Below the pieces are notes generated by a model. The model worked only from the letters and a program-made list of their open reading frames with translations, ran no database searches and was not told the DNA's origin. The position numbers were made by a program, and so were the translations under genes. This document shows positions 7,201 to 16,032 of a stretch of 64,000 nucleotides of DNA, in pieces. Numbering within the stretch: position 1 is the first letter of the stretch; every line of letters starts with the position of its first letter. The stretch is taken from assembly GCF_009914755.1 (NCBI RefSeq), contig NC_060946.1, one strand, 5' to 3'. This stretch comes from the human T2T-CHM13v2.0 reference genome, Homo sapiens.

Positions 7201-8084
7201 TGACAGTGTGCTCAAGGTTGTGCTTCTCCCTCCATTTCCAAGACACTGAAGCTTGTGCAGTGAGCCCAGAGTGTATTTTCATTCTGTCCTCCATGCCCAG
7301 GAAGAGCTCTTGATACCAGAGGTAAGCAAGAAAAACAGACAAATGAATGTGCTGCCATGAAACCTAACAGTTCATAAGGTGAGAATTAATCTCTCCTATG
7401 CATCTGGGCACACCACAGAAGAATTTTGTCTCCAGAATTAAGTAACTGCCTGTGACAGAACTCTGTCCTAAACCAAAGGCTTTGAGATTTTGCAGTGGCA
7501 CAGGCAGAAAAGAGCAGGTGTTCTAGAAAGATCATCTGTAAATAATAAAGTAAGAAGAGGTGATCGAAAACACAGGATACTCAAAAGCCCATAAACATAG
7601 TACTTCTCACCATGATGACATTAAACTCTAAAAAGAACAAACTTGACCTATATTTACTTTTTCTTTATCTATTTCTGCACCTTCCCTAACCCTGCCAAGC
7701 AGCAGGTATAACATGAAGGCTCCTGGAAATGCTGTATTATTAGACCCCACTTGAAATCTTTTTACCTACCTGGAAAGGCATACTCTTCCCTGCTGAGATT
7801 CTCCAGAATCCAATCTTTAGAACCACCAACATCAGGATAAGTCAGTGAGAGGTGCACTCACTTCTACTCCAGGTGAAGACACACTGGCTCACACAAAATC
7901 TCCTGGTTGGTCCTCTGGGTTCACACACATTTCTACAGCCCCTCTTCTCATAGCTATACACTTGCAGAATCATTTGCTCTCACCACACCCCCAATATTTT
8001 TTAACAGGAACCCAGATTAAGGTTTCCATATATTAAAGCCAGCAAGTTTGTTTCTCAGAAAGTGAGTTAGTTCAAGGTACATAC

Positions 8085-8106
8085 CCTGGACAGGTGACGG
8101 TAAAAT
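8085..8106 (-). CDS. DRICH1: DRICH1 microexon 8, 22 nt: ILPSPVQ
   Basis: CAG|ATTTTACCGTCACCTGTCCAGG|GTATGT. Confidence 0.88.
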
Positions 8107-8545
8107 CTGCAATGAGATAAAAGAAGATGCTGTAAGGATCAGATCAATTCTGCCACACCCCTTACACAGATCTGTTAGTCTCTTGATGACTTCACAAAAC
8201 TATTTGTAAGACAGTGGTAAGTCAAGGTCAAAGACCAAACATTCTAGCATAGAGGACATGTGTGGAAAAGACAAGAGCTTTTCCCACAGAATTTATCTTT
8301 GAAGTTGATTTAGATTGGTAAATGCACAATGTCTAATCCAAGGAGAAAAACTGGTGTGGAGGAAATGCCTCTGCATTACAGTTGATGATGGATGCTGTCA
8401 TTTAAAAACATCCTAGTGTGTCATGCATTAGATGAAAAGAAACTCCCACTGAACTCCATCCTCACAAAGAGAATTGTGTATGTTGTACATAATGTGACTT
8501 GTCATATTTTTATATCAAAATTAATTGAGAAGGGAAGAAATCAGG

Positions 8546-8760
8546 TGAAGGAAATAATGTATACAGTGGTCCATGTTTAATACAAAGTGCCTTGAACCGG
8601 TCTAGGTCAGCAAAAAAACCAGAATAGGATATGCTAGGCTCCTGCTTGGATTGGCAATGCCTGCTTGTTGGGCCCCCTCTCCTGGGAAATCTCACTTTTA
8701 CTGTTTTTCAGCTGCCTGAGTCCATTCTTTGGGATTGGATTGGTGAGTTTGTTTCTCACA
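8546..8760 (+). mobile_element. Third copy of the solo LTR, internally deleted
   Basis: Same termini and flanks; about 380 bp of the middle missing relative to 16493-17084. Confidence 0.8.
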
Positions 8761-8806
8761 TCAGAAAACCAACATTTCCTTAGAAGACAAAGAAAGGTTG
8801 TCTTAC

Positions 8807-11849: not shown

Positions 11850-12316
11850 CTGCAACGAGACAAAAGAAGATGCTATGAGGATCAGATCAATTCTGCTGCA
11901 CCCCTTACACAGATCTGTTATTCTCTTGATGACTTCAGAAAACTAGTTGTGAAACTGTTGTTGAGTCAAGGTCAAAGGCCAAACATTCTAGCATAGAGAA
12001 CACCTGTGGAAAAGACAAGAGCTTTTCCCACAGAATTTATCTTTAAGGTATTGGTATTGGTATCTTTAAGGCTATTGACTTAGATTGGTAAATGCACAAT
12101 GCCTAATCCAAAGAGAAAAACTGGTGTGGAGGAAAATGCCTCTGCATTACAGTAGATGATGGACACCATCATTTAAAAACATCCTAGTGTGTCATGTATT
12201 CGATGAAAAGAAACTCCCGCTGAACTCCATCCTCACAGAGAGAACTGTGTATGTTGTATATAATGCGCCTTGTCATATTTTTATACCAAGATTAATTGAG
12301 AAGGAAAGAAATCAGG

Positions 12317-13279
12317 TGAAGGAAATAATGTATACAGTGGTCCATTTTTAACACAATCTGCCTTGAACTGGTTTAGGTGAGCAAAACACAGAAGAAATAG
12401 GATATGCTGGGCTCCTGCTTGGATGGGCAATGCCTGCTTGTTGGGCCCCCTCTCCTCCCCACTTAATTGCCCTCACTTCAACCAAAGAAGTTTAGTCTAA
12501 GTTGAAAGTTTACTAGCCTGCAAAATAGCTCGCTTTGTCTGTTCTTATCAGCCTGCCCAGCTACTTAGGTCATAGGTCAAATACTTGAAGAGCCCCTGAG
12601 CTCACTAGGATGGTAATGCATTGTGGGCTGCAACAAAATGCAGTAAGACAACCATAAAAAAAAAAATACCTAAAGCCCCTCCCCAACAATCAATATGTGA
12701 CACCCACGAAGATTGTGACCTCATAGTACTCAGCCTATGAGGAACCAGGGTAGGGACCTGCACACTAGGGGATAAATTGCTTGTTGAAACTGTGCTGGGT
12801 GTGTCTGCCCATAAGGTACCGGATCTTGCAAGATCTTGCAAGACTGTCATTAAAAGTCTCACTTTCGGCCAGGTGGGGTGGCTCATGCCTGTAATACCAG
12901 CACTTTCGGAAGCCGAGGTGGGTGGATTACCTGCGGTCAGGAGTTCGAGACCAGCCTGGCCAAAATGGTAAAACACCGTCTCTACTAAGAATACAAAAAT
13001 TATCTGGGCATGAAGACACATGCCTGTAATCCCAGCTACCTGGGAGGCTGAGGCAGGAGAATTCATTGAGCCCAGGAGATGGAGCCGAGATTGCACCACT
13101 GCACTCCAGCCTGGTGAACTGAGTGAGACTCTGTCTCAAACAAAAACAAAAACAAAACAAAACAAAAAAAGAAAAGAAAAGAAAAAAGAAACAAAGAAAG
13201 GAAAGAAAATCTCACTTTTGTTGTTTATAGCTCCCTGAGTCCATTCTTTGGGATTGGACTGGTGAGTTTGTTTCTCACA
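12317..13279 (+). mobile_element. Second copy of the same solo LTR, interrupted by an Alu (about 12867-13206)
   Basis: Same TGAAGGAAATAATGTATACAG start and TTTCTCACA end; flanks TCAGG/TCAGA. Confidence 0.85.
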
Positions 13280-13325
13280 TCAGAAAACCAACATTTCCTT
13301 AGAAGACAAAGAAAGATTGTCTTAC

Positions 13326-13408
13326 CTGGGCATCATCATCATCATCATCACAGTCATCATCTTCACTTCGTGGTAGGCATACTAAACTCAGGTTGTCCTC
13401 AGAAGAAC
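13326..13408 (-). CDS. DRICH1: DRICH1 exon 4, 83 nt: (G)SSEDNLSLVCLPRSEDDDCDDDDDDAQ
   Basis: AG/GTAAG ends; (GAT)6 poly-Asp; phase 1 to 0. Confidence 0.9.
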
Positions 13409-16032
13409 CTGGAAGGACACAGAGGAAAGATCCGTGCCCTGGTTGATTGTGACTGTGAGTCACTCAGGGAGCTTTGCTGGATGTGGTGTATGGAGGTGGT
13501 TGATTAACAAGCATGGACTGAGTTAATGCTGGGCTATTCCCCTGAGTGGAAGAGGGATGGCAGAGGAGGGGAGCAGGAAAGACATGAGACATGGAGGCCT
13601 TGGCCTTGTACTAGAGGCATCATGCAGCAACACAAAACAGTCAACCCCAAATGGAACTAAAGCATACACTAAGGGTCAATGGAAGAGTGCCTTCCTACCT
13701 CTCAAATGTTTTGAAACTCTTCAAAACCAACAGTATTTTCTTAATGTATTCAAGATCGTGTCAGTACACAAGATCGTGTCAGTACACTAGGATCCAATTA
13801 TGCTGGTACTACATTTAGCATCTGTTTTAAAAGATCTATTACTTAATTAAAAGTCTATTTTATTGGTGAAATGGACTCAATTTTACCCAAATTACTCTAT
13901 TAATCACACATTCTTTTTCCTCTTTGTAAGTCTTCTTCTGGAATAATGGTGTGTGCCCACAACCTTTTGGGCCCCTGTAATCAAGGGCTTCATCAGCTCT
14001 GTGTCACTCTCCCTCAGGAGATTCTGTAAAGATCAGGTTTCATTCAAACAGGCCAAGCTCACACAGCCTGCTCTAACTACACCAGTGAATCTGAGAGACG
14101 TGACTCTGAACACTTTCTGCCATGAGGATAAGTTTCCAGGTTCAAATATACATGATCTATGGAAATGAGGAAATGTATACCAATACAAATGAACAAATTC
14201 ATTAAAAAATGTCCATGAGGAAAAGCGTGATTTTTTGGTTAACTAGCTTACATAAATTTTTTTTGTTTGATGCCTATTGTACCAAAAAATATTGGTACAA
14301 GATATCACAAATTTGGCTGGGCATGGTGGCTCATGCCTATAATCCCAGCACTTTTTGGGAGGCTGAGGCGGGCAGATCACGACATCAAAAGATTGAGACC
14401 ATCCCGGCCAACATGGTAAAACCACATCTCTACTAAAAATACAAAAATTATCTAGGCATGGTGGCACATGACTGTAGTCCCAGCTACTCAGGAGGATAAG
14501 GCAGAAAAATCACTTGCACCCAGGAGGCAGAGGTAGAAGTGAGCAGAGATCACATCACTGCACCCCAGTATGGTGACAGAGTGAGACTCCATCTCAAAAA
14601 ACAAAAAAGAAAAGAAAAAAATAGAAATCACAAATTTATATCAGTCTTGTTAAATCTAACTAATCAGCTGTCAACATAAAGATTCTAGAAAGTAAAGAAC
14701 ATACAAATAAGTAGAAAGGCATCCCACATTCATGGATAGGAAGACTGAGCCTGACTAACACACAATACTACACAAATAATCTACAGATTAACAACTGCTA
14801 TCAAACTGGTAACAGCCATGTGTGCAGAAATGGAAAAGATAATCCTCAGACTTTAATGAATTTTCATTTGCCTCAAATAAACTTGGTAATGTTGGAAAAG
14901 AATAGTGTTGGTGGATGCACATTCATGAGATTGAAATCTACAAAAAACAGAAATTCAGACAGCATGCTTCTAGCTTGGGGGCACCCATAAGTATCACAGA
15001 TGTAGAATAGAGAGCCCAGAATTAAATGCACACATACAGAGTCAGCTGATCTTCAATGAAGGTACCAAGAATACACAATGAGGAAAGGAAAGTCTCTTCC
15101 ACAAATGATGGTAAAACTGCATATTCTCAACAGAATGCTGACAGTGTGCTCAAGGTTGTGCTTCTCCCTCCATTTCCAAGACACTGGACCTTTTGCAGTG
15201 AGCCCAGAGTGAATTTTCATTCTGTCCTCCACACTCAGGGAGATGTCTTGATACCAGAGGTAAACAGCAAGCACAGACAAATGAATGTGCTGCCATGAAA
15301 CCTAACAGTTCATAAGGTGAGGATCCATTTCTCCTATGCATCTGGCACACCGCAGAAGAATTCTGTCTCCAGGAGTGAGTAACTGCTTGTGACAGAACTG
15401 TGTCCCAAACCACAGGCTCTGAGATTTTGCAGTGGCACAGGCAGAAAAGAGCAGGTGTTCTCAGAAAAATCATCTTTAAATAATAAAGCAAGAAGAAATG
15501 ATCAAAAACACAGGATACTCAATAGCCCATAAACATAATACTTCTCACCTGATGACATTAAACTCTGAAAATAACAAACTCAGCTTCTATTTACTTTTTC
15601 TTTTTCTGTTTCTACACCCTCCCTCAGCCTCCCAAGCAGCAGGTATAACATGAAGGTTCTTGTAAATGCTGTTTTATTAGACTCCATCTGAAGTATTGTT
15701 ACCTACCTGAAAAAGCATAGTCTTCCCCACTAAAGTTCTCCAGAATCCACTCTTTAGGATTCTGGTATCTTTACCAACATCAGGATAAGTCAGTGAGAGG
15801 TGCACTCACTTCTACTCCAGGTGAAGACACACTGGCTCACACAAAATCTCCTCATTGGTCCTCTGGGTTCACACACATTTCTACATCCTCTCTGCTCATA
15901 ATTATACACTCGCAGAATCATTTGCTCTCACCAGACCCCCAATATTTTTTAACAGGAATCCAGATTAAGGTTTCTATATATTAAAGCTAGCAAGTTTGTT
16001 TCTCAGAAAGTGAGTTAGTTCAAGGTACGTAC

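What the first reader, a model, noticed from the sequence alone, without database searches (positions are those of the whole stretch)
7770..15751. Three hidden 45-nt in-frame paralogs of exon 11 with intact AG/GT
7770-7814 gives (D)WILENLSREEYAFP with donor GTAGGT; 11512-11556 gives (E)WILENLSREEVTFP with GTGGGC; 15707-15751 gives (E)WILENFSGEDYAFS with GTAGGT. All are 45 nt, phase 1-1, stop-free, and sit after the 22-nt microexon just as exon 11 (DLTLESLSDEEIHP) does. Their pyrimidine tracts are weaker (e.g. GTTGGTGGTTCTAAAG versus GTTTTTGTTTCTAAAG). Inference: silenced or minor cassette exons; with the 30-nt exons they could give a combinatorial isoform set.
Basis: partly seen in the sequence, partly recalled or inferred. 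Interest (0 to 1): 0.72.

Follow-up and report, generated by a model that had tools for sequence, protein, structure and literature searches.

The report
Silenced duplicate exons inside DRICH1
Three short stretches in the introns of the human gene DRICH1 are real copies of one of its exons, carried along when a block of the gene was duplicated, but they have a damaged splice signal and are likely leftovers that the cell almost always skips, an ordinary by-product of gene duplication.

Summary
In detail: 7770-7814, 11512-11556 and 15707-15751 (- strand) are 45-nt, AG/GT-bounded, phase 1-1, stop-free paralogs of DRICH1 exon 11, one per internal repeat unit. They are most likely vestigial. Units 1-3 and a copy at chr22:25.8 Mb form one clade (100/100) with T-to-G changes in the acceptor tract: 7-9 pyrimidines in 17 nt, against 12-15 for the ten annotated exons scored. 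So this is likely one weakening event, copied. The 15707 copy also gained an 11-nt insertion with two out-of-frame AGs. Being intact is no sign of function: about 25% of intronic windows pass the same test, and the start-less paralog is intact too. In 79 ape and Old World monkey family proteins, 1 of 152 microexon junctions leads into such an exon (a gibbon model, shifted acceptor). Two more records use its donor but read in from the intron. None of eight RefSeq transcripts includes them. Of the 30-nt partners, one is used, one is dead and one is intact but unannotated. A combinatorial isoform set is not supported. Low-level inclusion in testis is not excluded, as no RNA reads could be examined.

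The parts
15707..15751 (-). Hidden copy C1, 45 nt, unit 1; most damaged acceptor
   Evidence: 7 of 17 pyrimidines; 8 private substitutions
15762..15772 (-). 11-nt insertion in the C1 acceptor that adds two upstream out-of-frame AGs
   Evidence: (absent from the other aligned copies)
11512..11556 (-). Hidden copy C2, 45 nt, unit 2; donor weakened to GTGGGC
   Evidence: 8 of 17 pyrimidines, donor 6 of 9 consensus
11557..11576 (-). G-interrupted acceptor tract of C2
7770..7814 (-). Hidden copy C3, 45 nt, unit 3; best preserved, best candidate for leaky use
   Evidence: 9 of 17 pyrimidines, donor 8 of 9 consensus
7815..7834 (-). G-interrupted acceptor tract of C3
4521..4562 (-). Annotated exon 11 (C4), 42 nt, T-rich tract, the used paralog
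   Evidence: annotation; its peptide type is in 49 of 79 family proteins
16033..16054 (-). 22-nt microexon B1 (annotated)
   Evidence: annotation
11828..11849 (-). 22-nt microexon B2 (annotated)
   Evidence: annotation
8085..8106 (-). 22-nt microexon B3 (annotated)
   Evidence: annotation
4871..4892 (-). 22-nt microexon B4 (annotated)
   Evidence: annotation
10598..10627 (-). 30-nt exon D2 (annotated), inside an old antisense L1-like fragment
   Evidence: annotation
14793..14819 (-). Dead 30-nt-type copy D1: AG and GT both lost, 3-nt deletion (end approximate)
6838..6867 (-). Unannotated 30-nt copy D3 with AG, GT, open frame and 13 of 17 pyrimidines
17722..17774 (-). Older decayed C-type copy (C0) before the first acidic exon: TG and CT at the aligned boundaries, 53 nt
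15334..15473 (-). Unannotated exon E downstream of C1 (3' end not determined; the frame ends at a stop); P0003 joins B1 to it and skips C1
5319..17290 (-). Span of the tandem internal duplication units (83-88% identity over 2.9-3.5 kb stretches)
   Evidence: self-blastn

Best explanation
The three segments are real duplicates of an exon-11-type exon with weakened acceptor tracts, and they are likely vestigial pseudoexons that splicing normally skips. Shown: DRICH1 is built of repeat units (acidic exon A, 22-nt microexon B, exon C, in units 1-3 a 30-nt exon D); units 1-3 form one clade apart from unit 4; that clade carries T-to-G changes in the C acceptor tract; family protein records almost always join B to a later exon. 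Inferred: the tract was weakened once, in the ancestor of units 1-3 and probably before apes and Old World monkeys split, and the weakened exon was then copied with the unit. The poor tract would recruit U2AF weakly (textbook mechanism, recalled), so the B donor pairs with the next strong acceptor (A, D or E). The C donors of units 1 and 3 are still close to consensus, so a likely leak is retention of the B-C intron with use of the C donor. That gives a 337-348-nt composite exon with a stop 19-22 codons after B, a truncated or likely decay-targeted product rather than a 15-residue insert.
For: Tracts: 7, 8, 9 pyrimidines in 17 nt against 12-15 for ten annotated exons; older-type copies elsewhere score 11-13 and are T-rich. 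Tree: units 1-3 plus chr22:25.8 Mb copy, support 100/100, stem 0.18. Use: 1 of 152 internal microexon junctions in 71 of 79 proteins leads into this exon type, while the exon-11 type occurs 69 times in 49 of 79 and is followed by another acidic unit in 11 proteins, so a C exon can work internally. None of 8 RefSeq transcripts has them (annotation given). P0003 joins B1 to exon E past C1. P0066 and P0077 join C to A but read in from the intron. Intactness is at chance level, about 25%; the chr22:25.79 Mb paralog has ACG at the start position yet an intact C. C columns vary more, not less, than intron: 12 of 45 against 212 of 1570, p = 0.025.
Against: Gibbon model P0029 includes the exon in frame through an acceptor 9 nt upstream. 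All four human copies of this clade keep 45 nt, AG, GT and frame (158 of 741 windows, 21%, do so by chance). C1 against C2 or C3 gives pN/pS of about 0.3-0.4, leaning to constraint, but on only 4 synonymous changes; C2 against C3 has 0 synonymous and 4 non-synonymous. The chr22:25.8 Mb copy scores 11 pyrimidines, as high as several older copies. The protein sets are mostly gene models, not independent, and clustered at 90%, which can hide a 15-residue isoform. Divergence has little power here because DRICH1 itself is reported with dN/dS above 1 (PMC6101605, passage). The excess divergence is post hoc, 8 of 12 changes are private to C1, and 5.5% of sliding windows reach it. No RNA reads, minigene or splice-site model could be run.
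Confidence: 0.75

Rival explanations
1. C2 and/or C3 are real minor cassette exons, included at a low level or at one germ-cell stage, adding 15 residues per unit.
For: Frame-neutral phase 1-1; C3 donor 8 of 9 consensus; no competing AG in 40 nt before C2 or C3; the gibbon model includes the exon type; the C donor is used in P0066 and P0077; DRICH1 protein was detected in sperm (PMC4770500, passage).
Against: Absent from 8 RefSeq transcripts; 1 of 152 junctions; both donor-using records lack use of the acceptor; no conservation over intron.
Confidence: 0.15
2. The C copies are kept as splicing regulators: the C donor acts as a decoy or alternative donor that drives B-C intron retention and decay, tuning DRICH1 output.
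For: B-donor read-through peptides in 3 of 152 junctions; C-to-A joins with intronic read-in; stops 19-22 codons into each B-C intron; the B-C intron is the least variable part of the three-way alignment (0-6 variable columns per 45 at the windows printed).
Against: Same records are what incomplete or noisy splicing would give; the C2 donor has decayed; low divergence near B can come from gene conversion, as with the identical A2 and A3 exons.
Confidence: 0.07
3. C and D exons form a regulated combinatorial or mutually exclusive set that diversifies the protein.
For: C and D are both phase 1-1 and lie in the same slot between B and the next A; D3 is intact.
Against: D1 is dead, C1 has out-of-frame AGs; C and D are unrelated, D lying in an L1-like fragment; no protein of 79 has both; DRICH1 and C22orf43 had no hit in the held supplements of two surveys.
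Confidence: 0.03

Closest known systems
Unannotated tandem exon duplicates in introns (Ivanov and Pervouchine 2022, PMC9013439; parts 1-2 of 4 read)
   Same: Intronic stretches homologous to an annotated exon of the same gene; that survey lists 4,027 such merged human targets.
   Different: Their showcased cases have conservation peaks, and in OBSCN split reads; here no conservation over intron and no human inclusion was seen. Whether DRICH1 is in their tables could not be checked.
Pseudoexons (silent intronic exons with AG/GT but weak definition; class recalled)
   Same: Canonical dinucleotides, plausible branch point, weak tract, skipped.
   Different: Here they are degenerate copies of a coding exon, so frame and phase are inherited rather than accidental.
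Tandem exon duplication-derived substitutions and mutually exclusive exons (PMC8373072, passages; PMC5740500, listing and supplement search only)
   Same: Homologous exons of like length and phase within one gene.
   Different: Those are mostly ancient (91.1% shared with ray-finned fish) and swap one homologue for another at one position; here the copies sit in separate multi-exon units, all family hits were apes and Old World monkeys, and they do not replace exon 11.

Membership tests
Duplicated (paralogous) exon | Sequence homology to an annotated exon including flanks | tested here: met
   69% identity over 220 columns, E 1e-10; alignment
Duplicated (paralogous) exon | Same position in the repeat unit and same phase | tested here: met
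   After each 22-nt microexon, phase 1-1
Pseudoexon | Canonical AG/GT boundaries | tested here: met
Pseudoexon | Weaker splice signals than used exons | tested here: met
   Simple counts only: tract 7-9 against 12-15 of 17; no trained splice model available
Pseudoexon | Not included in mature mRNA | tested here: inconclusive
   Absent from 8 RefSeq transcripts and from 151 of 152 junctions in protein records; no RNA reads examined
Functional cassette exon | Frame-preserving and stop-free | tested here: met
   for C1 only if the downstream AG of three is used
Functional cassette exon | Inclusion junction reads on both sides in human tissue | not testable with these tools
   No RNA-seq access
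Functional cassette exon | Conserved above flanking intron | tested here: not met
   12 of 45 against 212 of 1570 variable columns; low power in a fast-evolving gene
Mutually exclusive exon cluster | Homologous exons adjacent in one slot, one chosen per transcript | tested here: not met
   Copies are separated by constitutive A and B exons; C and D are not homologous

The most novel reading that the evidence does not exclude
C3 and C2 are dormant exons that germ cells switch on at a low level, and that lineages re-open through new acceptors (as the gibbon model suggests), so that a young, sperm-expressed acidic-repeat gene built from a cyclin-Y-like first exon keeps a reserve of frame-ready exons that change its repeat spacing.
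Probability: 0.13. Interest if true: 0.45.

Novelty: new member of a known kind. Interest (0 to 1): 0.2.

Why it matters
As most likely read, it matters little: it is a tidy example of exon loss by acceptor decay inside a duplicated gene block, with used and silenced copies side by side, handy for a minigene test of tract strength. If inclusion were shown in testis, DRICH1 would gain unannotated isoforms, and variants that restore the tract would become interpretable. The gene's function is unknown and its coding status has been questioned (PMC6101605), which limits the stakes.

Tried and rejected
Chance match: rejected, the homology covers flanks. Intactness as proof of selection: rejected by the window null. 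Three independent silencing events: disfavoured by shared tract changes and the tree (11 rows, near-identical LCR copies L009-L012, the poorly aligned L016 and C0, and L026 left out; midpoint root). Origin of exon C from exon 2 of the chr2 cyclin-Y-like gene: not supported, DNA score 34 against shuffle maximum 40. Pfam scan of four family proteins gave nothing above a curated cut-off; PF27989, precomputed on the hits, had no name here. Literature: DRICH1 24 papers, C22orf43 9, C22orf42 21, 'aspartate-rich protein 1' with testis 2 (listings, with passages read in four); no title, abstract start or passage seen concerns DRICH1 splicing. Searches gave 0 papers; two searches gave 4 each, listings only, not used. 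PMC5906017 had none of six terms searched. Two lines labelled L032 printed the wrong locus; they were not used and were redone. The L026 line was empty, so the chr13 copy was not scored. In one search, five of 16 proteins flagged as 'exon 11 followed by another unit' were dropped by eye (P0023, P0025, P0055, P0071, P0073) and P0032 'other' is an A exon. No structure was predicted: it would not bear on splicing.
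Full report
Observation. They lie 270, 271 and 281 nt after a 22-nt microexon, as the 42-nt exon 11 lies 308 nt after its own. The similarity to exon 11 and its flanks is real but distant (69%, E 1e-10), while the three are 86-89% alike over about 290 nt.

Anatomy. A self-comparison shows tandem units sharing 83-88% identity over about 3 kb. Each has an acidic exon A (68, 83, 83, 80 nt), microexon B (22 nt) and an exon C slot (45, 45, 45, 42 nt); units 1-3 also have a 30-nt slot D. D2 is annotated, D1 has lost AG and GT, and D3 (6838-6867) is intact but unannotated. 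D lies in a fragment that matches an L1 ORF2-like element elsewhere in the window (E 7e-6; the L1 label is recalled from the translation), so it is unrelated to C. A further C-type copy at 17722-17774 has TG and CT at the aligned boundaries.

Is intactness surprising? No. Sliding a 49-column test over the intronic part of the unit alignment, 188 of 762 windows and 185 of 741 keep four boundary bases, frame and an open frame in all three copies; windows overlap, so these are rough rates. The C columns vary more than the intron (12 of 45 against 212 of 1570, Fisher p = 0.025), though 8 of the 12 changes are private to C1 and 5.5% of windows reach that level. Codon counts are too few to decide: C2-C3 0 synonymous and 4 non-synonymous; C1-C2 4 and 7; C1-C3 4 and 5; the last two lean to constraint. 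A paralogous locus at chr22:25.79-25.80 Mb has ACG where DRICH1 has ATG, yields no match to units beyond a second A exon in 40 kb fetched, and still has an intact 45-nt C. DRICH1 itself is reported with dN/dS above 1 (PMC6101605, passage), so conservation tests have little power either way.

Why they would be skipped. In the 17 nt before the acceptor, C1, C2 and C3 have 7, 8 and 9 pyrimidines; the ten annotated internal exons scored have 12-15. A genome search found 16 matches to the B-C module. Exon 11 and ten older-type copies on chr18 and chr22 have T-rich tracts (11-13), whereas C2, C3 and the 25.8 Mb copy share two T-to-G changes and C1 shares the first. A tree of 11 copies puts units 1-3 and the 25.8 Mb copy in one clade, 100/100, apart from unit 4. 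The simplest reading, inferred, is one weakening event copied with the unit. Later damage differs by copy: C1 gained 11 nt with two AGs that would give 55- or 62-nt frameshifting exons, and the C2 donor dropped to 6 of 9 consensus bases against 8 of 9 for C1 and C3. That a weak tract lowers U2AF binding and exon definition is textbook knowledge, recalled, not tested here.

What transcripts and models show. Three protein searches gave 79 family proteins; all named hits were apes or Old World monkeys. By pattern matching, 152 internal-type microexons occur in 71 of them: 129 are followed by A, 13 by D, 3 by exon E, 2 by another cryptic exon, 3 read through the B donor, 1 is unclassified and 1 leads into an internal C. 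That one is a gibbon gene model of a DRICH1-like copy, with three extra residues that imply an acceptor 9 nt upstream. Two more records carry the peptide: an orangutan partial model (P0066) and a protein from one 953-nt contig (P0077, A peptide like macaque models); both join C to A but enter C from the intron. P0003, 99% identical to human exon 1, joins B1 to exon E, about 230 nt beyond C1. By contrast the exon 11 type occurs 69 times in 49 proteins and, where orangutan and monkey copies repeat the last unit, is followed by another acidic unit in 11 proteins. None of the eight RefSeq transcripts includes C1-C3 (annotation supplied). Limits: most records are predictions, not independent, and clustering at 90% can hide a 15-residue isoform.

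Mechanism. Shown: duplicated units, shared tract changes, near-universal skipping in the records, occasional use of the C donor in non-human records. Inferred: B donors bypass the weak C acceptor for the next strong one; the leak is retention of the B-C intron, giving a 337-348-nt exon with a stop 19-22 codons after B, likely truncated or degraded. Confidence 0.75. Minor productive inclusion 0.15, regulatory decoy 0.07, combinatorial set 0.03.

Comparison. Unannotated intronic exon duplicates are a described and large class, 4,027 merged human targets in PMC9013439 (parts 1-2 of 4 read; supplements unavailable). Functional duplicate-exon substitutions are mostly ancient (PMC8373072, passages). 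DRICH1 and C22orf43 had no hit in 10 and 1 held supplementary files of PMC5740500 and PMC8373072. In the listings and the four passages read, nothing describes these segments. DRICH1 is shown N-myristoylated (PMC4550359, passages) and detected in sperm of fertile men (PMC4770500, passage).

Side result. DRICH1 exon 1 matches a chr2:208.19 Mb exon (47%, E 3.5e-8) and a chr22:32.62 Mb exon. The chr2 exon belongs to a multi-exon gene of cyclin-Y type; its relatives include DRICH1 proteins, and 4 of 23 scanned carry Cyclin_N. The names CCNYL1 and C22orf42 for these loci are recalled. DRICH1 thus likely arose from a cyclin-Y-like first exon joined to acidic repeat exons; a link between exon C and cyclin-Y exon 2 was tested and not supported.

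Verdict. Real feature, correctly described, most likely ordinary vestigial duplicates. New member of a known kind, interest 0.2.

Noticed in passing
window 22961-23168 (-); L029, L036-L039; L030, L040: DRICH1 exon 1 is homologous to the first exon of a cyclin-Y-type gene on chr2 (recalled as CCNYL1) and to a chr22:32.62 Mb gene (recalled as C22orf42); DRICH1 likely derives from a cyclin-Y-like N-terminus without the cyclin domain. One search on this found no paper.
   Followed up: partly
window 6838-6867 (-): Unannotated 30-nt copy D3 has AG, the same donor as the used D2, an open frame and 13 of 17 pyrimidines; a better candidate for a minor cassette than the 45-nt copies.
   Followed up: partly
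window 10598-10627 (-): The annotated 30-nt coding exon lies in an old antisense L1 ORF2-like fragment, so it is likely an exonised transposon piece; its peptide type follows a microexon in 13 family proteins, apes and monkeys.
   Followed up: partly
window 15334-15473 (-), copies near 11282 and 7535: Unannotated exon E with a T-rich tract; joined to the microexon in P0003, P0017 and P0061; the human unit 1 frame ends in a stop after 45 codons.
   Followed up: partly
L032:1557-1773 and L033:60-4100 (chr22:25.788-25.801 Mb): Human DRICH1-like paralog, about 90% identical, with ACG at the start position and only one and a half repeat units found; likely a truncated pseudogene, while ape and monkey models of a like copy are coding.
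   Followed up: partly
L005-L014, L016, L026: The B-C module recurs on chr18 (two copies, donor CT), in seven chr22 low-copy-repeat copies (41 nt, frameshifted), at chr22:23.89 Mb (42 nt, intact), chr10 and chr13; the chr22 and chr13 places would fit the FAM230 family (guess from position, not tested).
   Followed up: partly
window 17722-17774 (-); P0078: A siamang model starts with a peptide of the decayed C0 copy joined to the first acidic exon; the human 25.79 Mb paralog keeps GT at that donor.
   Followed up: no
window 8807-8889 and 13326-13408: Exons A2 and A3 are identical over 83 nt (96% with flanks) while orangutan A2 and A3 peptides differ, suggesting recent gene conversion.
   Followed up: no
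window 57579-60187 (+): Long L1 ORF2-like open frames (530 and 340 aa) inside GUSBP11.
   Followed up: no
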